Part shown: piece after piece, positions 15,299 through 25,752 of the stretch
How the letters are laid out: every line of letters starts with the position of its first letter
How positions within the stretch are numbered: the first letter of the stretch is position 1
Assembly: GCA_964436735.1 (NCBI GenBank)
Contig: CAYTFM010000100.1
Span: forward strand, 1 to 26,461
DNA: 26,461 nt
Direction: 5' to 3'
DNA from: an uncultured Victivallales bacterium
GTDB taxonomy: Bacteria; Verrucomicrobiota; Lentisphaeria; Victivallales; GWF2-38-69
The notes under the pieces: model-generated
What the model was told of the DNA's origin: nothing
Databases searched by the model: none
Seen by the model: the letters and a program-made list of their open reading frames with translations, nothing else
Translations under genes and position numbers: made by a program

Positions 15299-15333
15299 GA
15301 GGCGATGCATCGCCTCGCTTATTGTGTACTTTT
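15299..15333 (+). terminator. Perfect 18-bp palindrome GAGGCGATGCATCGCCTC plus a T-rich tail; putative bidirectional terminator between the convergent GH operon and hsdM
   Basis: The palindrome is at 15299-15316. It is followed on the plus strand by gcttattgtgtactttt. It lies 2 nt from the hsdM stop (15319-15321). Confidence 0.35.
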
Positions 15334-16782
15334 GAGATCTTCGGCGATGGTGGCGAACTGTTCCAAGGCGGCCTCCAGGTCGTCGGTTATCTCCTGTGCG
15401 ATGACCTCCGGGGCGGGAAGATTGGCGGACTCCTCCAGCGAGTCATCCTTCAGCCAGAAGATGTCCAGGTTCACCTTGTCGCGCTTCAGCAGCTCCTCGC
15501 AGGTGAAGCCCTTGAAGCGTTCCGACTCCTTGCGTTCGTGACGGTTCGCCGGATTGAAGCGGGTGACGAAGTCGTCGAGGTCGGATCGCTTGAGCGTATT
15601 CTCTTTGAGCGTGAAATGCAGGTTGGTGCGCAGGTCGTAGATCCAGAGCTTATCCGTCCACGGCTTTTCCCGCGCCGGCTTGCGGTCGAAGAAAAGGACG
15701 TTCGCCTTCACCCCCTGGGCGTAGAAGATGCCGGTGGGCAGGCGCAGCAGCGTGTGGACGTCGGCCTGCTTGAGAAGGGCGCGGCGGATCGTCTCTCCGG
15801 CCCCGCCCTCGAAGAGGACGTTATCAGGTAGGACCACCGCCGCCCGGCCGTTCTGCTTGAGGATCGTGAAGATGTGCTGGAGGAAGTTGAGCTGCTTATT
15901 GCTCGTGGTGGCCCAGAAGTCGTCGCGGTTGATGATGAGCGACTCCTTTTGTTGTTCCCCCGCCTCGTTGACGATCGTCACGCTGCTTTTCTTGCCGAAG
16001 GGCGGATTGGCGAGCACCATCTCGTACTCGCCGTGCTTTCCGGCGAGGGCGTCCTTGGTGACGACCGGCAGATCGCTGTCGGAGTCGCCGCCGCTGCCGT
16101 GCAGCAGCAGGTTCATGGCGCACAGCCGCGTCACGCCGTCCACAAGCTCGATGCCGTAGAGCGTGCTGTTCTTGAGACGCTTCTTCTGCTCGCGGTCGAG
16201 CGAATGGCTTTTGACAAGGTAGTCATGCGCCGCCAGCAGGAAGCCGCCGGTGCCGCAGGCGGGGTCGCAGATGGCGTCGCCCGGCTTCGGGGCCATCACG
16301 TCGACCATGGCGGCGATCAGGGGGCGCGGCGTGAAATATTGCCCGGCTCCCCCCTTCACGTCCTCGGCGTTCTTCTGGAGGAGCCCCTCGTAGGCGTCGC
16401 CCTTGACGTCGGAGGAGAGGCTCGACCACTGCTCCTTGTCGATCAGGTCGACGATCAGCCGCCGAAGCTTGGCGGGATCCTGGATCTTGTTCTGCGCCTT
16501 GCGGAAGATGACGCCGAGCATCCCGGGCCGTTTCCCAAGCTCCTCAAGGGTGTGTCGGTAGTGCGTCTCCAAGTCGTCGCCATCAAGCCGCAGGAGCGAC
16601 TCCCAGTTGAACCCTTTTGGGACGGGCGAGTCCTTCTTGAACGGCGGCTTGCTTTGTTCGTCGGCCATCTTGAGGAACAGCAGATAGGTCAACTGTTCGA
16701 CATAGTCGCCATACGACAGGCCGTCGTCCCTCAGGATATTGCAGTAGTTCCATAGCTTTGCGACAAGTGCTTCAGATCTCAT
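15319..16782 (-). CDS. hsdM: Type I restriction-modification system methyltransferase subunit HsdM
   Basis: HsdM N-terminal helix bundle (LWNYCNILRDDGLSYGDYVEQLTYLLFLKMADEQ), YFTPRPLIAAMV, AdoMet motif I DPACGTGGFL and catalytic NPPFG are present. The RBS GGGAGA precedes the start. Confidence 0.9.
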   Translation of the reverse strand: MRSEALVAKLWNYCNILRDDGLSYGDYVEQLTYLLFLKMADEQSKPPFKKDSPVPKGFNWESLLRLDGDDLETHYRHTLEELGKRPGMLGVIFRKAQNKIQDPAKLRRLIVDLIDKEQWSSLSSDVKGDAYEGLLQKNAEDVKGGAGQYFTPRPLIAAMVDVMAPKPGDAICDPACGTGGFLLAAHDYLVKSHSLDREQKKRLKNSTLYGIELVDGVTRLCAMNLLLHGSGGDSDSDLPVVTKDALAGKHGEYEMVLANPPFGKKSSVTIVNEAGEQQKESLIINRDDFWATTSNKQLNFLQHIFTILKQNGRAAVVLPDNVLFEGGAGETIRRALLKQADVHTLLRLPTGIFYAQGVKANVLFFDRKPAREKPWTDKLWIYDLRTNLHFTLKENTLKRSDLDDFVTRFNPANRHERKESERFKGFTCEELLKRDKVNLDIFWLKDDSLEESANLPAPEVIAQEITDDLEAALEQFATIAEDLKSTQ

Positions 16783-16802: not shown

Positions 16803-17675
16803 TTACAAATCTCTATCAAGTAATTCTTTTACCCACAGTCGGTCACGGTAGGCTCTCAAATAGAGGCGAGCAGCGGTAGAAAACTCAGCTTGAGCTCTGA
16901 CTTTTTTGATGAGTTCTTTTTTGTGATACAAATAATTAGACTCGTTTCCGCCAGCCTTTGCGTCATCTCCTTTTAAGACATGTTCCTCAATATCTATTGC
17001 GAGTTGTTTCCGCTTTCTCACCAATGCAATTTGCTTCAAATGGTATAGTTCAATGCTTGCCTCTACTCGATCAATTGTCATCTGATCACTCTTTGCGGGA
17101 TGAGGAGATCCATCGGGGAGGAATGTAAGGAGTTTTGTGTCGTCGACATTCACCGGATCTAACAATTTTGATCGCTCGCAAGGATCACTTTTACTATGAG
17201 CGTATGATGGAGGCGGAATTATAGGAAAATGGTCTTGCTTGCCACCTTCTGTTCCGCCGATATCTCGCCTCCTACAGTTGCAGAATGTGCAGGATAAACG
17301 GAAATTTTTCCAATCGAAGGCAAGCCACGTATAGCCAGGATGTGTATCTTCCTCAATGACAGAGTTTTTTGGGCGGAAATGATCAACGGACATGTCAGAG
17401 CGGTCTTGTTTAGTTTCACAATACCAACATTTGTCATGACTTGCTTCCCGCAGTGCTTCTTTAGCAGCACTCCATACCGATGATTTTAAATTGATTGCCT
17501 TGTGTCTTGCCTCAAGGCAGATGACATTTAACTCACTTCCGGTTTTCCCTTTTGATTCAGCTTCATCTTTAGCTGCAGTCACCTTTCCCTCAACAAACCT
17601 TTCAGCTTCCTCTACTATTTTTTTCCAATCGGAAGGGAGACAGCAGCAAACGTCATCCTGAAGGATAAACCTCAT
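16803..17675 (-). CDS. HNH endonuclease, Septu PtuB-like (TIGR02646-type)
   Basis: The HNH core reads CWYCETKQ...SVDHFRPKN...WKNFRLSCTFCNCRR (C-x2-C, DH, N, C-x2-C). A strong RBS GAGGAAGG precedes it. Its ATG overlaps the stop of the upstream ATPase ORF by 4 nt (ATGA). GC is about 43%. Confidence 0.65.
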   Translation of the reverse strand: MRFILQDDVCCCLPSDWKKIVEEAERFVEGKVTAAKDEAESKGKTGSELNVICLEARHKAINLKSSVWSAAKEALREASHDKCWYCETKQDRSDMSVDHFRPKNSVIEEDTHPGYTWLAFDWKNFRLSCTFCNCRRRDIGGTEGGKQDHFPIIPPPSYAHSKSDPCERSKLLDPVNVDDTKLLTFLPDGSPHPAKSDQMTIDRVEASIELYHLKQIALVRKRKQLAIDIEEHVLKGDDAKAGGNESNYLYHKKELIKKVRAQAEFSTAARLYLRAYRDRLWVKELLDRDL

Positions 17676-20600
17676 ATCTTGCCTTCCTCATGCTCAATCT
17701 CATCCAATATTTTGTCGGTCTCTTTGGCAAGGTTCTCGATGTCCTTTTTGTTCCAAGCCGGTTTATGCAGAATATCACGAGCTTTTCGTCTGCGCCCAAG
17801 AGCCTGTAAGTAGATCCGATAATAAGGGTCAGAACTAGCGGATTTGAACCCTAAGTGCTCAACTTCTTTAGTCAAATCTTGTAGTTTTTTCAGATCGTCT
17901 ACCGAAACTCTTTTCTTTCCGGCCAATTCCGCATGTTTGTCGAGCAAGCACAGTGTCTCATCATCCAAATCAGATTTCAGCCCAAACATTTCGCTTGTAA
18001 GAATTCCTGTAAAGCCCATGCCTCTTAGGTTTTCGCCAGCCAGGGCTGCGAAGCACTCCTCAGTTTGTTCGCGGCGTTTTAAAAGGTGAATATTCTCCTT
18101 GAGCAGTCCAGCGATTGCTAAAGGATCATGTGTCGATAGAAGCACCTGGCTATTCAACCGTTTCTCAAGTTCTTCGAATGGAAGACGCTTGGGAGAGTTT
18201 TTGTCGGTGACATCCCCTACTAAGGCGTCCAAAAGCAGATGCAAGTATCCAAGCTGCCAGTGGGGATTCAAGTGGGTATCTGGTTCATCCAGAAGGACGA
18301 GAGATTGATTCATCTTCGTGAAACGAAGCAGGCCGAGAACCATCATAAGCTGTTGTTCTCCTTCGCTCATTTCTTTGAAGGTTACAACGGTCTGCTTTGT
18401 TGCTGTTGCGTTTATCCGAATGCGGATTCGCACCTCGTGAATGATTGATGAGAAGTCAGTGCATTCTAAGGCGACAAAGAAGCTGGTCGGGTCAGCATAT
18501 TCCGAGGCTAGTTTTTGCAGGTGTTTTTTACTCGGAAGAAGCAGGAAATAATGATCGCCTGCGCTTTCCTGAAATCCATCATCCACTCGTTGTTGTAAGA
18601 CCATATGCGCAATCGAGTGGCGGCGAAGGTGTTCCAGAACGGGACGAAGTAGTCCGTCTGCGCCCCAGAAATCCTCAGGATTGTTGTTGCGATACCATCG
18701 CGGACGCTTTAAAACAAAGAGAACTGATTCGAGATCTTCGATGCGTAGATGCTTCTTCAAAAAACTGTGGATTCCCGGGTCATCCTCATAAAAAAAAGCA
18801 AGCAGCGCATATTTCGCATGTTGGGTTTCAGCGTTGAAGAATCGTCTTTCTTCCAACAGACGTGCAAGGGTTTCCTCATCGTACGTTTTCTGCTTTAATA
18901 GCCTATTGTAGTGTTCTTGTTTCGGTTCTGAGAAAAGGTCAGCAAACCTTTTGCTTGGGCCGGAGTAGTATCCAAATACAAAATGGGGTAATGGAATCTC
19001 TTCCCGTTTACATATATTAAAGTCGATATTGCCCGATTTATGATTGCGTTTCGATGCTATCTTTGCTTGGGGCTTGCGCAAATTGATTTGCCAATCAATC
19101 TCGACCAATTGCCCATCTATCTCGTAACGAATGCGATAGTCTTCCAAGCCAGCCTGCGGTGTCCATTTGTCTTTTGTTTGCCATTTATAGAGGTCGCGAA
19201 AGATAGCAACAAGTACTTCAAACAGGTTCGATTTTCCCGTGCCGTTCCAGCCGAGAAGCACGTCGACTGCATGGTTCGGATCAAATATCACTGAATAGTC
19301 TTCTAAATTCTTGAACTTTTTGATCCAAATTTCATGAAGACGGAAGGGGCCAGACGGTTTTCTATTAGAATTATGCCGATGATGAGATTTCTTTGCAAGT
19401 TGCTTTTGCCCTGTAAAGCTCTTAATGAGTTTTGCCGAATCTGCGATTGTGTCATAGAACTCATAAACCTCTTCGCGTCCGAATTGTGCGGCATTGAATA
19501 AATCCCTAGCAGTGGGTGTTCCGACAGCTACACTTAACGCAGTTTCAAGCACACGTTTCCGGGCTTCAGATGATTTCATGGAAGAAACTTTCTTGCTCTT
19601 ATGAAGCTTTCTTTGCTTGGGCTGTTCTGATGGAGTCGCAATTAGGTTTACCTTGGGGACATGGATATGTTCCAGCAGCTTTCTTTCAAGCCCATCACAT
19701 GGGTCTTGTGACACCAGTTGGCCAGAGAAGGCCTGTTGAAGGATTTTTTGGCGAAGCAGAATTCCCCGTTGGAGGTTGGTATTCACCACCGCCTCCAACT
19801 CCTCCACCACGCTCATCCGTCGCTCGACCTCCGTAACAATTCTCGTCTGCTCGTCAAGCGGGGGGAGAGGAAACGGAATCGTTGAGAATTTCTCTGCTCC
19901 AAGATGGTTTATGCCGACGCCAACAGCGACCTGAGCAAAAATGCCGTTAATGTAAAAGTGCCTAAGCACAAGAAGAGGGAATCTCGAATCGAGGAGAACA
20001 GGTTGCAGGCGAATGATAGTGTTCTGAAAGCAACATTGAGGCAATTCTTCGTGCCAGATTGCCGGTTTTCCCACTTGGGATATGCTACCAGACGCCTCGG
20101 ATATGATTAGATCCCCACGTTTCAATAGATAACGCTCTCTCTCGTCTGGTGTGAATTCCATCTCAAGCACATCGCTCAAATCGAGACCGTTCTCAGTTAT
20201 GTTTGCGGCGCGCATGTATTTTGTCGGAAAGTCCCTCGAAATATTCTTTGGCGAGCGTTGGCGACCTAATTGAACAGAGCCCAGTTGTCCCACACTCGCC
20301 CACGTCCATCCTTCTGGGAGCTGGGGGAGGTTGGCTGTGTCGGGAGGGGCGGGTTCTTTGTATATGCCGCGGCCGGACCATTTCCGGCGGCGTACAGTGA
20401 GGATGCGCTTCAGGAGTTGCTCCCCATTCTCATACACTTCTGATTTCTTTCCAGTTACATCTGGCTTGGCCAATTCCGCTTCGGTTGGAACTATCTTGCC
20501 CTCGCAAGCAGCCTTGAGCACGGCGGCGCGGTAACGCTTGAGATTTGCCTGAACCCGTTTCAATGCCGCCATCCCCGCCTCCAAACGCGTGAACTGCTTC

Positions 20601-21076
20601 TCGATCTCCGCGACGATAAGACGTTGTTCTGGCAAGGAAAAAGAAGGAATCAAGAATGAAGAAATATCTTTGGGACGAACGGCAGGATAGAGCGCACCCT
20701 GTACTTTTTGACACATCTCATCAATGAAATCAGGTGTCTGGACGGCGTAGAAAAGGAATCTGGGCTCCTCGCCTTTTGCACGCAGCACATGAAACCCAGT
20801 TGAACCAATGGAGCCGTCAAGGTCAGGCGGAACAAGTGCCACAGCATTCAGATTAGGGCGTGTCATTGACACGAGAACGTCGCCCATTCTCAAAACCTGC
20901 TTTGCCCGACTTGGAGCTTGGGCCACTGGCAGTGTCTTAGGATCGACGATCCGTTTTGTCTCACGATCAATGCTACTGATGTCCACGTAACTGAATTCAT
21001 GCCTACCACTTGGAGGACCGGTTTGTTCAACCCGCGCCTCAGTCATATCCCCAATTGTTTTCCCTGCGTTCTTCAC
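17672..21076 (-). CDS. hsdS: In-frame fusion of a complete type I RM specificity subunit (HsdS, aa 1-455, two TRDs) to a PtuA/OLD-like ABC ATPase (aa ~577-1134) through a Lys-rich ~120-aa linker
   Basis: The HsdS part has TRD1, the central conserved region IPSFSLPEQRLIVAEIEKQFTRLEAG, TRD2 beginning LPEGWTWASVGQL, and the distal conserved region PFPLPPLDEQTRIVTEVERRMSVVEELEAV...LLRQKILQQAFSGQLV. No stop follows. The linker is ...KLHKSKKVSSMKSSEARKRV...KKSHHRHNSNRKPSG. The ATPase part begins FRLHEIWIKKFKNLEDYSVIF, has Walker A VLLGWNGTGKSNLFE, Walker B/D-loop SLVLLDEPDTHLNPH and H-loop VLLSTHDP. The start is GTG at 21076, overlapping the upstream gene stop by 4 nt. Confidence 0.7.
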   Translation of the reverse strand: MKNAGKTIGDMTEARVEQTGPPSGRHEFSYVDISSIDRETKRIVDPKTLPVAQAPSRAKQVLRMGDVLVSMTRPNLNAVALVPPDLDGSIGSTGFHVLRAKGEEPRFLFYAVQTPDFIDEMCQKVQGALYPAVRPKDISSFLIPSFSLPEQRLIVAEIEKQFTRLEAGMAALKRVQANLKRYRAAVLKAACEGKIVPTEAELAKPDVTGKKSEVYENGEQLLKRILTVRRRKWSGRGIYKEPAPPDTANLPQLPEGWTWASVGQLGSVQLGRQRSPKNISRDFPTKYMRAANITENGLDLSDVLEMEFTPDERERYLLKRGDLIISEASGSISQVGKPAIWHEELPQCCFQNTIIRLQPVLLDSRFPLLVLRHFYINGIFAQVAVGVGINHLGAEKFSTIPFPLPPLDEQTRIVTEVERRMSVVEELEAVVNTNLQRGILLRQKILQQAFSGQLVSQDPCDGLERKLLEHIHVPKVNLIATPSEQPKQRKLHKSKKVSSMKSSEARKRVLETALSVAVGTPTARDLFNAAQFGREEVYEFYDTIADSAKLIKSFTGQKQLAKKSHHRHNSNRKPSGPFRLHEIWIKKFKNLEDYSVIFDPNHAVDVLLGWNGTGKSNLFEVLVAIFRDLYKWQTKDKWTPQAGLEDYRIRYEIDGQLVEIDWQINLRKPQAKIASKRNHKSGNIDFNICKREEIPLPHFVFGYYSGPSKRFADLFSEPKQEHYNRLLKQKTYDEETLARLLEERRFFNAETQHAKYALLAFFYEDDPGIHSFLKKHLRIEDLESVLFVLKRPRWYRNNNPEDFWGADGLLRPVLEHLRRHSIAHMVLQQRVDDGFQESAGDHYFLLLPSKKHLQKLASEYADPTSFFVALECTDFSSIIHEVRIRIRINATATKQTVVTFKEMSEGEQQLMMVLGLLRFTKMNQSLVLLDEPDTHLNPHWQLGYLHLLLDALVGDVTDKNSPKRLPFEELEKRLNSQVLLSTHDPLAIAGLLKENIHLLKRREQTEECFAALAGENLRGMGFTGILTSEMFGLKSDLDDETLCLLDKHAELAGKKRVSVDDLKKLQDLTKEVEHLGFKSASSDPYYRIYLQALGRRRKARDILHKPAWNKKDIENLAKETDKILDEIEHEEGKI

Positions 21077-22170
21077 TCTTCATCCTTTGCTTTGTCATTC
21101 CATGCGAATTTGCGGATCAAGGTGTTGAAGCGGCTCCATTTATGGGTCAGGAACTGATAACGTCCCGCGACGATTCCCGGAGAGACACCGAGTTCGTTTG
21201 CGATCGTCTTGATCTCGGACTCGATCTGCGAGACCTTGATGCGCCCATTGTACCTGGCGGGGATCAAGGTTTCGGCGGCAAACTCGTCCGCCTGTTTTTC
21301 CCGTGGATCATCCTTGGAACCGTCGTTGATCATGAGATCTTTCTTCGAGTCATGCAAAACGTGCCCGAGTTCATGGAAGAAGGAAAACCATAGTTTATCT
21401 TCGCCTTTGCCACGCAAATTCAGCAGGATCATAGCTTTTGTCGGCGTCAACCACCGGGTCGCTCCGTTCCACGGCGCTTTTTTCATTTCCTTAACCAGTG
21501 CCAACGCCACGCCACACTCAGCACATATCCTTCGCATTTCAGCGACCATTGCTGATGGGTCTGCCTTGCAGGACAGCGAACGCAAAGCATGTATTTGCTT
21601 CAGAAGAGCAGAACGATCATAAGGACGGCAGTCGCACTTCTGGGCTTGCAACTCGCCCATGCGGATCCATGAGGATGCAGGGCCAGGCAGAGACTCAAAG
21701 CATTGAGAACGCCTTGCCGCCACTTCGGGTCTTTCCCATAACTCGCACCATGCCCGCACACTGCTGACGCCATAAAACTTCAACGTGTCGCATAGCAACG
21801 CATGCTTGTCGCTGTTTTGGGGAATAACTTTCCTGCTAATGAGCTCGGAGGTGGGAATTGTCTTGAGCCACTCGAGATCAGACGCCAAACGCTGTTTTTC
21901 CTCCAGCTTGGACAGTTGCTCGCGGTAGTTGAGCTCAAGATTGTTCCAGAACCGGGCGGGAGAGCCAAAGACAAGTTCAAGCCGATTGGCGGTTTCGAGT
22001 GTTATCGGCTGTTCGCCTTTGAAGATTCGATTAATGGTCTGTTGCGTCGTTTCAAGCCGAATGGCAAGCTCTTGCTGCGTCCAGCCATTGAACTCCATGT
22101 GCTCGCGTATAGTTTCGCCTGGTGGAACCGCATAATCCGGGTCGTATGTATATTTGCGTTTCGCTTTCAT
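21073..22170 (-). CDS. HigA-like XRE-HTH antitoxin domain fused to an ImmA/IrrE-family (COG2856) zinc metallopeptidase
   Basis: The N-terminus is IREHMEFNGWTQQELAIRLETTQQTINRIFKGEQPITLETANRLELVFGSPARFWNNLELNY, a HigA/VapI-type HTH. The C-terminus has HEXXH (FFHELGHVLHD) followed by EKQADEFAAETLIP, the ImmA/IrrE signature. A strong RBS GGAGGAA precedes it. Its ATG overlaps the higB-like stop (ATGA). Confidence 0.7.
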   Translation of the reverse strand: MKAKRKYTYDPDYAVPPGETIREHMEFNGWTQQELAIRLETTQQTINRIFKGEQPITLETANRLELVFGSPARFWNNLELNYREQLSKLEEKQRLASDLEWLKTIPTSELISRKVIPQNSDKHALLCDTLKFYGVSSVRAWCELWERPEVAARRSQCFESLPGPASSWIRMGELQAQKCDCRPYDRSALLKQIHALRSLSCKADPSAMVAEMRRICAECGVALALVKEMKKAPWNGATRWLTPTKAMILLNLRGKGEDKLWFSFFHELGHVLHDSKKDLMINDGSKDDPREKQADEFAAETLIPARYNGRIKVSQIESEIKTIANELGVSPGIVAGRYQFLTHKWSRFNTLIRKFAWNDKAKDEE

Positions 22171-22529
22171 TGGCGGTTCCTCCGCTGGTATTTCTGGTCA
22201 TGCGTGTCTTCGATGTCGATTACTTCAATAGCTGTCACTTGCTCCAAGTCGATGCCTCCGTCAGTTTTTGTTGGTACGGGAATATTTGCCGGTATGAAGA
22301 GCAACCTATATGGATACTGGAGGTCAACCGAAAAAACGCCTTTCCTATTGACAAGCTCATGGCACTGAGGCGGTGGTAGGTAAGAGATGTCACTTAGCGT
22401 CTCCCCCGCTTTCAGTTCCGCCAGGCGTTGCCGGAGTTTTGAGGCGCACTGCGGGCCAAGCTCCCTGACGCCCGCCTTCTCCACATCGCAGATCTTTTTC
22501 AACTTGTTTGCTCTAAATGATATCTCCAT
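22167..22529 (-). CDS. HigB-like toxin (RelE/ParE superfamily, plasmid-killer family)
   Basis: The 120-aa product reads MEISFRANKLKKICD...LRQRLAELKAGETLSDISYLPPPQCHELVNRKGVFSVDLQYPYRLLFIP. This matches the HigB pattern and it lies immediately upstream of a HigA-type HTH gene. The start coordinate is taken from the ORF track; my manual count of the start codon differs by 1 nt. Confidence 0.6.
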   Translation of the reverse strand: MEISFRANKLKKICDVEKAGVRELGPQCASKLRQRLAELKAGETLSDISYLPPPQCHELVNRKGVFSVDLQYPYRLLFIPANIPVPTKTDGGIDLEQVTAIEVIDIEDTHDQKYQRRNRQ

Positions 22530-22530
22530 G

Positions 22531-22600
22531 TCGCTCCGTCTTCAATAAATAATTAACATTCTATGTTAATAAAAACAAGCAAATAGAGTTTACTTTTTTT
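22531..22600 (-). promoter_or_regulatory. Promoter/operator region for the higB-led operon with a perfect palindrome TTAACAT-tct-ATGTTAA
   Basis: On the minus strand: TTGTTT, a 17-nt spacer, TAATTA, then GGAG, then ATG. The 17-bp palindrome at 22554-22570 overlaps the spacer, which is the typical autoregulatory operator arrangement for a TA HTH antitoxin. Confidence 0.45.
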
Positions 22601-22761: not shown

Positions 22762-25557
22762 TCATGCAACAAGCGCCTGGTTCAACTCGTCCAGGATGCC
22801 GTTCAAGTCACCGCCGAAGAGCTGCGAGGCCTTGCCGAGGCCGCCTTGCTGGCTGAAGGGGGCGTAGTCGAAGTCCTCCGGCTCGACGCTGAGGCTGGTG
22901 GCGATGTGGTCGCGGATAAGGTTGAGCCAGGAGAGCTGCTCGGAGGCGAAAACCGTGCCGGCCTTGGCCTTGTCCATGAGCCATTCGTTGAACCGCTCAT
23001 GGACGGACTCGGCGAAGGGCTGAAGCAGCGGTTGCTGCTCCAGGGCGAAGCGGACGAGCGCGACGAGGTCGGCGAAGCGTCCGGTCTGCGAACGTCCTTT
23101 GACCTTGCCGGGGCGGGTGGCGGCGAAGGCGTTCCAGAGGCGGTCCTCCGTCCATGCGGCGTGGTTCTCGCAAAGCTTCCGCTCCAACTCCTTGAGCATC
23201 TGCTCGGTGACGCGTTGGCGGTAGGGGCGGCTGTAAAGGATTTGCAGGGCGGAGATCTCCGCGTGATGCTGTTCGAGGTAGGCGCGGAAGGATTGCACAA
23301 GATTGGCGGCCCGCTCCTTGGCAGCGGCGTCGAACCCTTGCTCGACCACGGCGTCGATGGTGACGGTGTCGATGGTCTGCTCGCTGGCCTTCTTGACGGC
23401 GAGGATTTTCTCGCGGAGTTCGGGGCTGTCGAAGGGAAGGCAAGCGGTGGCGACAAGGTCGGCCTGTGCCGCGGCAAGATCCTCCCGCGAGGACTGGAAG
23501 TCCGTGGGCTTGCCCGTGACGGCTTTCGCGTGGACGAGATCCGGATCGAGGGCGTCGAGGAGGGCTCGGGCGAGATCGGGAAGGGATTTGCCGCCCGCAA
23601 GCTCCTTGAGCCCCTTGGCGTCTTCCTGCGTGCTATCCTGACTGAGCCGCGCGAGGCGTCCGGCAAGGGAGCTGATGGTGTCCTCGTTGCGCTTGCCGAG
23701 GGCGACGCCGAGGAGGAGATCTTTGAGCGGCACTGTGCGTTTGCGCTCGAGGGGGCGGGAGTCGGTCTTGTCGCTTTCGCAGACGCCGACGGCGTCGACG
23801 ATCACGAAATGCGTCTTGGCCCGGGCGTCGGCCCCGCTGACGGACTGCAGGTCGGTCGGGCTGAGCACGCGGGTGCCGCGCCCCTTCATCTGCTCGAAAT
23901 AGACCCGGCTGCGGACGTCGCGCAGAAAGAGGAGGCATTCCAGCGGCTTGATGTCCGTGCCGGTGGCGATCATGTCCACTGTGACGGCGATACGCAACTG
24001 CGGCGAGGTGCGGAACAATTGGATAAGATCCTCGGCCTTGGCCGGCTTGCCGGTCTCCGGATGCTTGGACTGGTAGGTGATCTTCTTGGCGAAGTCGTTG
24101 CCCTTGCCGAAGACCTCCCGGACGATGTGGACGACATCCTCGGCATGCGAGTCGTCCTTGGCGAAGATCAGCGTCTTGGGCACCATGGCGCGTCCGGGGA
24201 ACAGCTCCGTGAAGAGGGCGTCTTTGAAGGCTTTGATGACGGTGCGGATCTGGGAGGGGACGACGACGGAGCGGTCCAGCTCCTGTTTGGTGTATTCCAG
24301 ATCCTCGTCGAGGCGCTCCCAGCGGCGGGCGCGGGTCTCCTTGCTGCGCTTGTCGACGTAGAAGCCCTTCTCGACAAGGCCGCCCTGTTCCGAGACCTGC
24401 GTCTTGATCCGGTAAACCTCGTAGCCGACGTTCACGCCGTCGGCCACGGCGCGTTCGTGTCTGTATTCCGTGACAAGGTTCTGATGAAAGAAGCCGATGG
24501 TCTGCTTGGAGGGGGTGGCGGTGAGGCCGATGATGAAGGCGTCGAAGTAGTCGAGGACCTGCCGCCAGAGGTTGTAGATGGAGCGATGGCACTCGTCGGT
24601 GACGATGAAGTCGAAGGTCTCGATGGGGATCGCCGGGTTGTAGGCGACCTCGCGGGGGCGCTCGTTCGCCTGGGAGAGCTCGAAGGCGGACTTCTCGTCG
24701 AGATCCTCGTCAAGCTCCTCGCCCCGCAGCATCGCGTAGAGCCGCTGGATGGTGCAGACGCAGACGCGGGCCACCGGATCAAACTGGTTGGAGTTGAGCC
24801 GCTGGACGTTGTGCAACTCGGTGAACTTGCGGCCGGTGTCGGGCGTGACGAACTGGTCGAACTCGGATTTGGCCTGACGTCCAAGGTTGGCGCGGTCGAC
24901 GAGGAAGAGGACGCGGCGGGCTCCGGCGTGTTTGATCAACCGGTAGATGAAGGCGCAGGCGGTGAAGGTTTTGCCCGCACCGGTGGCCATCTGGATCAGG
25001 GCGCGCGGGTGGTTGGCGGCGAAGGACTGTTCCAGCCGCGTGATGGCCTCGGTCTGGCAGGTGCGCAGACCGCGCGAGACAAGCGGATGAGCGGCGGGCG
25101 CGGTTTGCAGGCGCATGCGCAGGGTGTCGGGCTCGGTGGCCATGGCGGACAAGGTTTCGGGTCGATGGAAGGAGAAGATTTGGCGGGAACGTGGATCAGG
25201 ATCGCGTTCGTCCCTGAAAAAGGTTTCGACGCCGGTGGATTCGTAGCGGAAGGGAAGCGATCCAGCCTTGGGCCTCAGGAACTCGGGGAGCGTGTCGCCA
25301 TAATAAGCCGTTTGGTCGGCGACGATGGAAAGGGTCTTGCCCTCGCGTTTCGCTTCGACAACCCCGACAGGCGCGCGGTTCGCGATCAGGAGGTAGTCGC
25401 ATCGGCCGCCGGGCAGCGGCACTTCGCGCAAGGCGACGCCTGGTGAGGCTCCAAGGTTGCACCTCACATAGTCCTGAACCAGCCAGCCCGAGTCGGCAAG
25501 CATCCGGTCGATCTTCTCACGTGCCTTTTGTTCAGGCGTTCCTGGCATTCGTGCCAT
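22762..25557 (-). CDS. hsdR: Type I restriction enzyme R subunit HsdR (SF2 helicase/endonuclease)
   Basis: The N-terminus EQKAREKIDRMLADSGWLVQD is HsdR-like. Helicase motif I is LIQMATGAGKTFTA and motif II VTDECHRS; the remainder is the long SF2 body. Start is the ATG at 25557 with GAGGA upstream. The ORF-track extension to 25635 adds 26 residues with no RBS. Confidence 0.85.
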   Translation of the reverse strand: MARMPGTPEQKAREKIDRMLADSGWLVQDYVRCNLGASPGVALREVPLPGGRCDYLLIANRAPVGVVEAKREGKTLSIVADQTAYYGDTLPEFLRPKAGSLPFRYESTGVETFFRDERDPDPRSRQIFSFHRPETLSAMATEPDTLRMRLQTAPAAHPLVSRGLRTCQTEAITRLEQSFAANHPRALIQMATGAGKTFTACAFIYRLIKHAGARRVLFLVDRANLGRQAKSEFDQFVTPDTGRKFTELHNVQRLNSNQFDPVARVCVCTIQRLYAMLRGEELDEDLDEKSAFELSQANERPREVAYNPAIPIETFDFIVTDECHRSIYNLWRQVLDYFDAFIIGLTATPSKQTIGFFHQNLVTEYRHERAVADGVNVGYEVYRIKTQVSEQGGLVEKGFYVDKRSKETRARRWERLDEDLEYTKQELDRSVVVPSQIRTVIKAFKDALFTELFPGRAMVPKTLIFAKDDSHAEDVVHIVREVFGKGNDFAKKITYQSKHPETGKPAKAEDLIQLFRTSPQLRIAVTVDMIATGTDIKPLECLLFLRDVRSRVYFEQMKGRGTRVLSPTDLQSVSGADARAKTHFVIVDAVGVCESDKTDSRPLERKRTVPLKDLLLGVALGKRNEDTISSLAGRLARLSQDSTQEDAKGLKELAGGKSLPDLARALLDALDPDLVHAKAVTGKPTDFQSSREDLAAAQADLVATACLPFDSPELREKILAVKKASEQTIDTVTIDAVVEQGFDAAAKERAANLVQSFRAYLEQHHAEISALQILYSRPYRQRVTEQMLKELERKLCENHAAWTEDRLWNAFAATRPGKVKGRSQTGRFADLVALVRFALEQQPLLQPFAESVHERFNEWLMDKAKAGTVFASEQLSWLNLIRDHIATSLSVEPEDFDYAPFSQQGGLGKASQLFGGDLNGILDELNQALVA

Positions 25558-25752
25558 GCCTTTCCTCGATATGGGGTCGGACAGGAAACAGCGTATACTT
25601 ATTCTATGACCCGGGGCGCGGTTTTCAAGTTGCATTCAAGGGGTGATCCCCTCGTCAACCTGGGAGATCGCCGATTGTTTTATTGGAATATTTGCCGGCC
25701 AGGATGTAATTATTGGGCTGAAATCTCGAAAACAGCCTAATCATGAGGAGCT

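What the first reader, a model, noticed from the sequence alone, without database searches (positions are those of the whole stretch)
21073..22600. HigB toxin plus a HigA-HTH/ImmA-protease fusion heading the hsdS-effector-hsdM operon, with a palindromic operator
HigA antitoxins are normally ~100 aa. Here the HigA-type HTH is fused to a COG2856 ImmA/IrrE Zn-peptidase (HELGH...EKQADEFAAE). In ImmR/ImmA and DdrO/IrrE systems these peptidases cleave their cognate HTH repressor in response to DNA damage or infection signals. A self-contained HTH-protease placed upstream of hsdS::ATPase, HNH and hsdM, and translationally coupled to them, could make expression of the whole methylase/specificity/effector operon signal-responsive. 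The perfect palindrome TTAACAT-tct-ATGTTAA overlaps the predicted promoter spacer for higB.
Basis: partly seen in the sequence, partly recalled or inferred. Interest (0 to 1): 0.5.

Follow-up and report, generated by a model that had tools for sequence, protein, structure and literature searches.

The report
HigB-like toxin with HigA–peptidase partner cassette
This is a widespread, self-contained two-gene toxin–antitoxin-type cassette (a HigB-like RNase plus a HigA-type DNA binder fused to an ImmA/IrrE zinc peptidase) that has landed inside a type I restriction locus; the kind is already known, and it is not a dedicated regulator of that locus.

Summary
A 120-aa HigB-fold protein (22529..22167, minus strand) overlaps by 4 nt a 365-aa HigA-type HTH + M78 peptidase (22170..21073). 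That gene abuts hsdS::ptuA–ptuB–hsdM. A perfect palindrome, ATTAACAT-N3-ATGTTAAT, lies at 22552–22570.

Comparative data change the interpretation. The 365-aa protein belongs to a large family with relatives in at least 581 species genomes. A HigB-like gene lies immediately upstream in about 74 of the 80 best loci, and there is no conserved third gene. Only the window's two closest relatives share its hsdR/hsdS flanks. Five related hsdS::ptuA–ptuB–hsdM operons lack the cassette. So this is an autonomous mobile cassette, related through its long protein to component B of the PD-λ-2 defence system. It sits in an hsd-locus insertion hotspot.

The core TTAACA-N5-TGTTAA of the palindrome is conserved about 41 nt upstream of the start codon in 53 of 80 loci, so it is very probably the HTH operator. 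It lies upstream of a conserved σ70-like promoter, not in its spacer. That promoter, TTGACA-17-TATAYT, straddles the higB start codon. Codon 3 is ATA in 56 of 68 loci, against 20% of Ile codons elsewhere. It should yield transcripts for the HTH–peptidase only.

Which partner is toxic, and what the peptidase cleaves, remain untested.

The parts
22552..22570 (.). Palindromic operator ATTAACAT-N3-ATGTTAAT (core TTAACA-N5-TGTTAA), the probable binding site of the HigA-type HTH
   Evidence: Perfect 8+3+8 inverted repeat. It occurs once in the window against 0.02 expected. The exact core occurs once per locus in 53 of 80 related loci, always just upstream of the cassette.
22540..22545 (-). -35 hexamer (TTGAAG here; family consensus TTGACA) of the conserved sigma70-like promoter
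   Evidence: The hexamer lies at -16..-11 from the start codon, with a 17-bp spacer, in 38 of 68 loci. 59 of 68 loci score 9-11 of 12.
22517..22522 (-). -10 hexamer (TATCAT here; family consensus TATAYT) inside codons 3-5 of the HigB-like gene; the predicted transcription start is near 22510/22509
   Evidence: T, A, T and T at +8, +9, +10 and +13 are 100%, 91%, 96% and 100% conserved. Codon 3 is ATA in 56 of 68 loci, against 99 of 492 Ile codons elsewhere (p = 5e-28). Other synonymous sites are saturated.
22534..22537 (-). Shine-Dalgarno-like GGAG upstream of the HigB-like start codon
   Evidence: Read from the sequence. A purine-rich stretch at -12..-7 recurs in the family.
22167..22529 (-). 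HigB-like (RelE/HigB-fold) protein, 120 aa, the presumed ribosome-dependent RNase toxin
   Evidence: Pfam HigB-like_toxin E 0.0044 and phrog_3066 'toxin of TA system' 8.5e-10. The model has pLDDT 87 and its best structural matches are P. vulgaris HigB. H57 and R75 align with HigB H54 and R73. The C-terminal EDTH is set against HigB's EDYH by eye. R35, H57, E58, R75, D108 and H110 are invariant.
21073..22170 (-). HigA-type HTH fused to an ImmA/IrrE (M78) zinc peptidase, 365 aa
   Evidence: HTH_3 and Peptidase_M78. PADLOC PD-Lambda-2_B 2.1e-25 over residues 16-354. The model has pLDDT 84; its matches are CapP 7t5t and many HigA structures. It is full length and 58-70% identical in the top 120 homologues.
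21916..22128 (-). HTH domain (about residues 15-85)
   Evidence: HigA structures align to residues 15-88.
21361..21375 (-). HELGH zinc-binding motif (H266, E267, H270); E291 within EKQADEFAAE is the probable third ligand
   Evidence: H266, E267, H270, E291, A294 and A298 are invariant in 27 homologues.
17672..21076 (-). Context: HsdS fused to a PtuA-like ATPase (1134 aa)
   Evidence: PADLOC PtuA 6.8e-148 (residues 579-1132) and Specificity_I 3.8e-82 (residues 8-562). The fusion recurs in other genomes.
16803..17675 (-). Context: PtuB-like HNH nuclease
   Evidence: PADLOC PtuB 2.4e-77.
15319..16782 (-). Context: hsdM
   Evidence: N6_Mtase 1e-66.
22762..25635 (-). Context: hsdR (EcoEI/EcoAI-type)
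   Evidence: EcoEI_R_C 1.5e-39 and ResIII 5.9e-37.

Best explanation
The two genes form an autonomous, horizontally mobile toxin-antitoxin-type cassette. It has inserted between hsdR and hsdS::ptuA of a type I R-M/Septu-like locus.

Shown here:
- The pair (HigB-like gene, then HTH-M78 gene), its upstream palindrome and a sigma70-like promoter travel together as one unit across phyla.
- Their neighbours are unrelated from locus to locus.

Inferred:
- The HigA-type HTH dimer binds TTAACA-N5-TGTTAA and autoregulates.
- The conserved promoter TTGACA-17-TATAYT starts transcription at about codon 7 of higB. It therefore supplies the HTH-peptidase without HigB. This would keep the long protein in excess, as internal antitoxin promoters do in other toxin-first TA operons.
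- HigB-like, whose HigB active-site residues are invariant, is a ribosome-dependent mRNase held inactive by the HTH-M78 protein.
- A trigger, probably phage infection, acts through the M78 peptidase. The peptidase might cut its own protein, a linker or a partner. This would free HigB and cause abortive growth arrest.
- In this locus, transcripts reading through the cassette probably also reach hsdS::ptuA-ptuB-hsdM. This is a consequence of where the cassette landed, not its evolved role.
For: - Family size and uniform full-length architecture.
- A HigB-like gene lies immediately upstream in about 74 of 80 loci, and it is the only conserved neighbour (59 loci in one cluster).
- The neighbours are heterogeneous, and the downstream gene is often on the opposite strand.
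- The cassette has lower GC than the flanks: about 0.52 against about 0.60-0.66.
- The operator is conserved in position and sequence.
- The promoter is conserved, with a strong synonymous-site constraint.
- HigB fold and catalytic residues.
- HigA and CapP/IrrE folds, and an invariant HExxH...E.
- PD-Lambda-2_B profile match 2.1e-25. PD-lambda-2 gives abortive-infection defence (PMC9519451).
- HTH+ImmA antitoxins are a known hub in RosmerTA and NetFlax node D25 (PMC10440598).
- A TA system embedded in a type I R-M locus has precedent in DarTG2 (PMC12255303).
- 10 of 80 cassettes lie within 8 kb of hsd genes, in at least four different arrangements.
Against: - In PD-lambda-2, the only relative tested, the HTH-peptidase alone was toxic and the HigB-like protein rescued it. 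A third gene was also needed for defence. That polarity is the opposite of the one proposed here.
- The window's HigB-like protein does not match PADLOC's PD-Lambda-2_A model. It is also below Pfam's HigB cut-off.
- No conserved promoter able to transcribe the higB start codon was found. How HigB is expressed is therefore unexplained.
- Nothing here tests DNA binding, proteolysis or toxicity.
Confidence: 0.65

Rival explanations
1. Reversed polarity, as reported for PD-lambda-2. The HTH-M78 protein is the toxic effector, through its protease or a dominant DNA-binding activity. The HigB-like protein is its neutraliser or sensor.
For: In PD-lambda-2, B alone was toxic and A rescued it (PMC9519451). 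The 365-aa protein matches PD-Lambda-2_B over nearly its full length. COG2856 proteases have been treated as the toxin partner of Xre antitoxins, for example in Brucella (PMC10538038, listed).
Against: The HigB catalytic residues (H57, R75, D108, H110) are invariant across the family, which is unexpected for a mere inhibitor. The conserved promoter should make the HTH-M78 protein without HigB, which would be self-harming if that protein were the toxin. The match to PD-lambda-2 is distant: there is no hit to the A model and no C gene.
Confidence: 0.22
2. The HTH-protease is a CapH/CapP- or ImmR/ImmA-like signal-responsive switch, and its evolved job is to control the hsdS::ptuA-ptuB-hsdM operon it heads.
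For: - The genes lie on the same strand with 4-nt overlaps.
- No terminator-like site and no other promoter-like site lie on that strand between the cassette promoter and hsdS.
- The peptidase half matches CapP best.
- Cassettes recur inside or beside type I R-M operons.
Against: - About 70 of 80 related cassettes have no hsd gene within 8 kb, and many are followed by a gene on the opposite strand.
- Five related hsdS::ptuA-ptuB-hsdM operons lack the cassette and the operator.
- Only one operator copy exists in the window.
- No C-terminal GAF-like sensor domain is present, unlike in CapP and IrrE.
- A HigB-like partner with intact catalytic residues has no place in a pure regulator.
Confidence: 0.1
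3. A decayed or inert remnant of a TA cassette with no current function.
For: The HigB-like protein scores below Pfam's cut-off. The gene overlap differs from the 10-25 nt gap usual in the family.
Against: Both ORFs are intact and full length. All family-invariant residues are present. The operator is perfect, and both promoter hexamers are present.
Confidence: 0.03

Closest known systems
PD-lambda-2 anti-phage system (Vassallo et al. 2022, PMC9519451)
   Same: A HigB-like gene comes first, followed by a HigA-type HTH fused to a C-terminal ImmA/IrrE peptidase. The long protein matches PADLOC PD-Lambda-2_B at 2.1e-25 over residues 16-354.
   Different: There is no third (C) gene here or in the family. 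The HigB-like protein does not match the A model. The reported toxicity polarity (B toxic, A rescues) may not apply.
Canonical HigBA / GraTA type II TA modules
   Same: Toxin-first gene order. HigB fold with H54/R73-equivalent residues and a C-terminal EDTH matching HigB's EDYH by inspection. HigA-type HTH. A palindromic operator upstream.
   Different: The antitoxin is 365 aa, with an extra helical region and an M78 peptidase. There is a single operator upstream of the -35, rather than operators overlapping the -35 and -10 as in P. vulgaris HigBA (my own knowledge). A promoter is embedded in the toxin's first codons.
RosmerTA (RmrA antitoxins) / NetFlax ImmA hub D25
   Same: An HTH + M78 protein is paired with a variable toxin and is linked to phage defence. 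RmrA profiles hit the peptidase region at E down to 3.5e-10.
   Different: The matches are partial and weak. The toxin here is a HigB/RelE RNase rather than an RmrT.
CapH/CapP, ImmR/ImmA and DdrO/IrrE repressor-protease pairs
   Same: An M78 peptidase next to an XRE-type HTH. CapP is the best structural match for the peptidase half.
   Different: The HTH and the protease are one polypeptide. There is no GAF-like sensor domain. There is no conserved regulated operon downstream. A toxin gene is always attached.
TA or abortive-infection genes embedded in type I R-M loci (DarTG2 in the EPEC hsd locus, PMC12255303; PrrC in EcoprrI, from my own knowledge)
   Same: A small toxin module sits between hsd genes, on the same strand.
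   Different: The toxin and antitoxin families differ. No evidence here shows the cassette senses or interacts with the R-M enzyme.

Membership tests
HigB-like toxin (Pfam PF05015, RelE/HigB fold) | Sequence match above the Pfam gathering score | tested here: not met
   17.9 bits against a cut-off of 27. However, many homologues at 55-65% identity carry PF05015, and phrog_3066 matches at 8.5e-10.
HigB-like toxin (Pfam PF05015, RelE/HigB fold) | RelE/HigB three-dimensional fold | tested here: met
   The model has pLDDT 87.3. The top Foldseek hits are P. vulgaris HigB, with probability 1.00 and target-normalised TM 0.65-0.79.
HigB-like toxin (Pfam PF05015, RelE/HigB fold) | Active-site residues equivalent to HigB H54, R73, D90 and H92 | tested here: met
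   H57 and R75 align with H54 and R73 (hhalign). The C-terminal EDTH is set against EDYH by inspection. All are invariant in 36 homologues.
HigB-like toxin (Pfam PF05015, RelE/HigB fold) | Ribosome-dependent mRNA cleavage and growth arrest | not testable with these tools
   Needs expression and cleavage assays.
HigA antitoxin (TIGR02607) | Model score above the cut-off; a single-domain protein of about 100 aa | tested here: not met
   45.1 bits against 47.7, and 365 aa with a second domain. The HTH fold itself matches HigA structures at TM 0.7-0.85.
ImmA/IrrE M78 peptidase (PF06114, COG2856) | Pfam match above the cut-off, with the HExxH motif and a downstream Glu ligand | tested here: met
   46.1 bits against 22. 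H266, E267, H270 and E291 are invariant.
ImmA/IrrE M78 peptidase (PF06114, COG2856) | Cleaves a cognate HTH repressor in response to a signal | not testable with these tools
   No biochemical data.
CapH/CapP-type regulator of a defence operon | Conserved linkage to a downstream defence operon, and a C-terminal GAF-like sensor domain | tested here: not met
   Downstream genes are not conserved. Related hsdS::ptuA operons lack the cassette. The protein ends about 20 aa after the peptidase core, and CapP aligns over only 172 columns.
PD-lambda-2 | Component B (HTH + peptidase) | tested here: met
   PDLC03982 matches at 2.1e-25, residues 16-354 to profile positions 59-389 of 402.
PD-lambda-2 | Components A and C | tested here: not met
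   No PD-Lambda-2_A hit for the window protein or for 35 homologues, even at E <= 1. There is no conserved third gene.
RosmerTA | RmrA-type antitoxin with an RmrT toxin | tested here: inconclusive
   RmrA profiles hit only the peptidase region, at E 3.5e-10 or weaker. The spr1629 model scores 35.9 bits against a cut-off of 335. The partner is HigB-like.

The most novel reading that the evidence does not exclude
In this locus the cassette has been captured as the transcriptional switch of a hybrid type I R-M/Septu operon. The gene hsdS::ptuA has no room for its own promoter. Expression of hsdS::ptuA, ptuB and hsdM would therefore depend on the operator-controlled promoter that fires from inside higB. 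Infection-triggered self-cleavage of the HTH-M78 protein would then release HigB and boost the R-M/Septu genes at the same time.
Probability: 0.12. Interest if true: 0.6.

Novelty: new member of a known kind. Interest (0 to 1): 0.3.

Why it matters
The finding is mostly ordinary. HigB-like + HigA-peptidase pairs are common, are already annotated, and have one experimentally validated relative (PD-lambda-2).

The value added here is a family-wide map of the cis-elements:
- an invariant operator;
- a near-consensus promoter written into the toxin's first codons, which predicts uncoupled expression of the long protein;
- evidence that the HigB active site is conserved.

These give concrete handles on an open question, namely which partner is the toxin and what the M78 domain senses. 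The analysis also shows that hsd operons repeatedly acquire this cassette.

Tried and rejected
- phmmer of the 120-aa protein against PDB sequences gave only chance hits. The profile search gave only GraT, at E 0.011. The fold search was needed to settle the fold.
- PADLOC gave no hit for the HigB-like protein or its homologues.
- I looked for direct repeats or a target-site duplication around the low-GC block and found none of note.
- I looked for a conserved promoter upstream of or overlapping the palindrome that could transcribe the higB start codon. Only an A-tract is conserved there.
- I tested for covariation between operator variants (TGAACA-N5-TGTGAA in a Verrucomicrobial clade) and HTH residues. 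The differences (QRDL against QKEL in helix 2) are confined to one clade, so the test is inconclusive.
- I searched for follow-up papers on the PD-lambda-2 mechanism and on an HsdS-PtuA fusion. None are in the library.
- The mBio 2025 RelE/ParE paper does not mention peptidase partners.
- Promoter-like sites in the window alone are no more frequent than chance: 6 against 5.4 expected. The promoter's weight comes only from cross-species conservation.
Full report
**Anatomy.** All relevant genes lie on the minus strand:
- hsdR, 25635..22762.
- A 232-bp gap.
- A 120-aa ORF, 22529..22167.
- A 365-aa ORF, 22170..21073.
- A 1134-aa ORF, 21076..17672.
- A 290-aa ORF, 17675..16803.
- hsdM, 16782..15319.

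The first three junctions after hsdR are 4-nt overlaps. For hsdS the GTG start has an AGGA 7 nt upstream, and an alternative ATG lies 30 nt downstream. The block from about 16.8 to 22.6 kb has 44-53% GC, against about 60-66% in hsdM, hsdR and the rest of the contig. The rest of the contig encodes PVC-type chromosomal genes, including glycoside hydrolases and N_methyl/DUF1559 proteins.

**Domain checks on the long protein.**
- It carries HTH_3 (2.1e-09) and Peptidase_M78 (5.1e-12, above the cut-off).
- It nearly reaches the HigA equivalog model, at 45.1 against 47.7 bits.
- It matches PADLOC's PD-Lambda-2_B over residues 16-354 at 2.1e-25. Weaker hits go to capP and RmrA.
- Its AlphaFold model has pLDDT 84. 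It matches CapP (7t5t) with the peptidase half and about 40 HigA/GraA structures with the N-terminal 85 residues.
- H266, E267, H270 and E291 are invariant in 27 homologues. So are three cysteines and much of a helical region at 100-185 that has no family assignment.
- No GAF-like sensor domain follows the peptidase.

**Domain checks on the short protein.**
- It is only a weak Pfam HigB match (E 0.0044).
- Homologues at 55-75% identity are named 'killer suppression protein' or 'plasmid maintenance system killer', and many carry PF05015.
- Its model has pLDDT 87, and its best matches are P. vulgaris HigB structures.
- hhalign places H57 and R75 on HigB H54 and R73 (I confirmed the HigB sequence against 4mct_B).
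- The C-terminal IEDTH is set against HigB's YEDYH by inspection.
- R35, H57, E58, R75, D108 and H110 are invariant in 36 homologues.
- The RNase site therefore looks intact.

**The pair is an autonomous cassette.**
- The long protein has 3372 hits at E <= 1e-5. The top 120 are all about 360 aa and 58-70% identical.
- A scan of one genome per species found at least 581 relatives. They occur in Desulfobacterota, Verrucomicrobiota/Kiritimatiellia, Spirochaetota, Hydrogenedentota and others.
- In the best 80 loci, a HigB-like gene lies immediately upstream in about 74.
- Clustering of about 440 neighbouring ORFs gave one recurrent family, the HigB-like protein, in 59 loci. No conserved third gene emerged.
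- The next gene downstream varies in size and is often on the opposite strand.
- The 119 neighbours range from Fic, HNH, McrBC, DUF1016 and methyltransferases to gyrase, HypD and transporters.
- More distant full-length relatives (28-40% identity) sit on 44 plasmids and three phages. PGAP annotates them as 'HigA family addiction module antitoxin' next to a 'RelE/ParE family toxin'.

**Relation to the R-M/Septu operon.**
- The downstream ORF is HsdS fused to a PtuA ATPase. It is followed by a PtuB HNH nuclease and hsdM.
- The fusion recurs. About six 50%-identity cluster representatives of 1099-1179 aa align over both halves.
- Five loci carry hsdS::ptuA-ptuB-hsdM with overlapping genes. None has a HigB-like gene, an HTH-M78 gene or the operator.
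- Conversely, only L001 and L002, the closest relatives, share the window's hsdR-upstream/hsdS-downstream flanks.
- In L001 the same gap also holds a Gp49-like pair and a zinc-ribbon gene, and hsdS is unfused.
- In L002 the HTH-M78 gene lacks HigB and is flanked by two copies of the hsdR 3' end.
- Other cassettes lie beside hsd genes in different arrangements. One is hsdM | cassette | HNH-hsdS-Mrr in Verrucomicrobiales. One is hsdM | cassette ... hsdR in Akkermansiaceae. One is cassette ... hsdR-hsdM in Syntrophorhabdaceae.
- In all, 10 of 80 cassettes lie within 8 kb of hsd homologues. By my rough estimate that is well above chance.
- I read this as repeated landing in defence loci. A published precedent is DarTG2 inside an EPEC type I system. 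I do not read it as a dedicated regulatory partnership.

**Cis-elements.**
- The palindrome is ATTAACAT-aga-ATGTTAAT on the coding strand, at 22552-22570. It occurs once, against 0.02 expected.
- The exact core TTAACA-N5-TGTTAA occurs exactly once per locus in 53 of 80 loci. It always begins about 41 nt before the HigB-like start codon. It is present even in L002, which lacks higB.
- This is strong evidence for a functional site, and the HigA-type HTH is the obvious binder. That assignment is an inference.
- Anchoring the alignment on the palindrome shows only an A-tract upstream.
59 of 68 loci score 9-11 of 12.
- The -10 is written into codons 3-5. Codon 3 is ATA in 56 of 68 loci, against 20% of Ile codons elsewhere in the same genes (p = 5e-28). 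Codon 7 is ACA in 41 of 49 loci. Other conserved residues (G25, R35, L39, A41) use all synonymous codons evenly.
- In the window the hexamers are TTGAAG (22545-22540) and TATCAT (22522-22517). A CA lies at +20/+21, that is 22510/22509.
- The start codon itself is real. It varies as ATG, GTG or TTG, it has a purine-rich stretch upstream, and the N-terminal strand belongs to the HigB fold.
- The promoter should therefore produce transcripts that lack the higB start and encode only the HTH-peptidase.
- Toxin-first TA operons such as mqsRA and Rts1 higBA are known (my own knowledge) to use internal promoters to uncouple antitoxin supply. This family appears to do so at the extreme 5' end of the toxin gene.
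- I found no conserved promoter able to transcribe higB itself. That remains unexplained.

**Mechanism.** The best-supported reading is a type II-like TA/abortive-infection cassette.
- The HTH binds the operator.
- The long protein is made in excess and holds an active HigB-like RNase in check.
- The M78 domain provides the trigger step.

The main caveat is experimental. In PD-lambda-2 the HTH-peptidase alone was toxic, the HigB-like protein rescued it, and a third gene was required for defence. No later mechanistic work was found. The invariant HigB active site and the promoter that makes the long protein alone both argue for the classical polarity in this family. I still give the reversed polarity about 0.2.

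In this locus, however, no terminator-like site and no other promoter-like site separate the cassette promoter from hsdS::ptuA on that strand. Read-through into the operon is therefore likely.

**Verdict.** The finding is a new member of a known kind, of modest interest. The conserved operator, the codon-embedded promoter and the recurrent HsdS::PtuA fusion are the items most worth carrying forward.

Noticed in passing
window 17672-21076 (minus strand), with 16803-17675 and 15319-16782; loci L081-L085: HsdS is fused in frame to a Septu PtuA-like ATPase (1134 aa), followed by PtuB and hsdM. The fusion and the three-gene operon recur in five other loci and in about six 50%-identity clusters. No paper in the searched library describes it. 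It suggests a Septu-type ATPase/HNH effector recruited to a type I specificity subunit.
   Followed up: partly
window 22517-22545 (minus strand); equivalent positions in 59 of 68 related loci: A near-consensus sigma70-like promoter (TTGACA-17-TATAYT) straddles the HigB-like start codon. Its -10 is encoded by codons 3-5, and ATA at codon 3 occurs in 56 of 68 loci. The predicted start is at codon 7, so its transcripts cannot encode HigB. How higB itself is transcribed is unexplained.
   Followed up: yes
L002:593-2706: The HTH-M78 gene occurs with its operator but without a HigB-like gene. It is flanked by two copies of the hsdR 3' end (residues 723-957 and 908-957), which may be a footprint of how the cassette inserts or recombines.
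   Followed up: no
L001:1307-5643: The same hsdR-hsdS gap holds a Gp49-like (RelE-type) gene plus a 158-aa partner, then the HigB-like/HTH-M78 cassette, then a 126-aa zinc-ribbon ORF before an unfused hsdS. The gap acts as an insertion hotspot for small cassettes.
   Followed up: partly
L031, L046, L049, L058, L061, L062, L067 (upstream of the HigB-like gene): A Verrucomicrobial clade carries a variant, less symmetric site (TGAACA-N5-TGTGAA) together with HTH helix-2 changes (QRDL instead of QKEL). This may be operator/HTH co-evolution, but it is confined to one clade.
   Followed up: partly
window 21073-22170, residues about 100-185 of the 365-aa protein: A conserved helical region lies between the HTH and the peptidase. 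It contains the invariant motif AARRSxCF and cysteines C157, C181 and C216. It has no family assignment, and part of it has low model confidence (residues 148-153). It might be the toxin-binding or a metal-binding region.
   Followed up: no
L088:2675-4602 (Achromobacter phage CF418P1): A distant relative (29% identity) of the HTH-M78 protein sits in a prophage-like region between a 95-aa gene and a 161-aa gene. This may be a three-gene PD-lambda-2-like arrangement.
   Followed up: no
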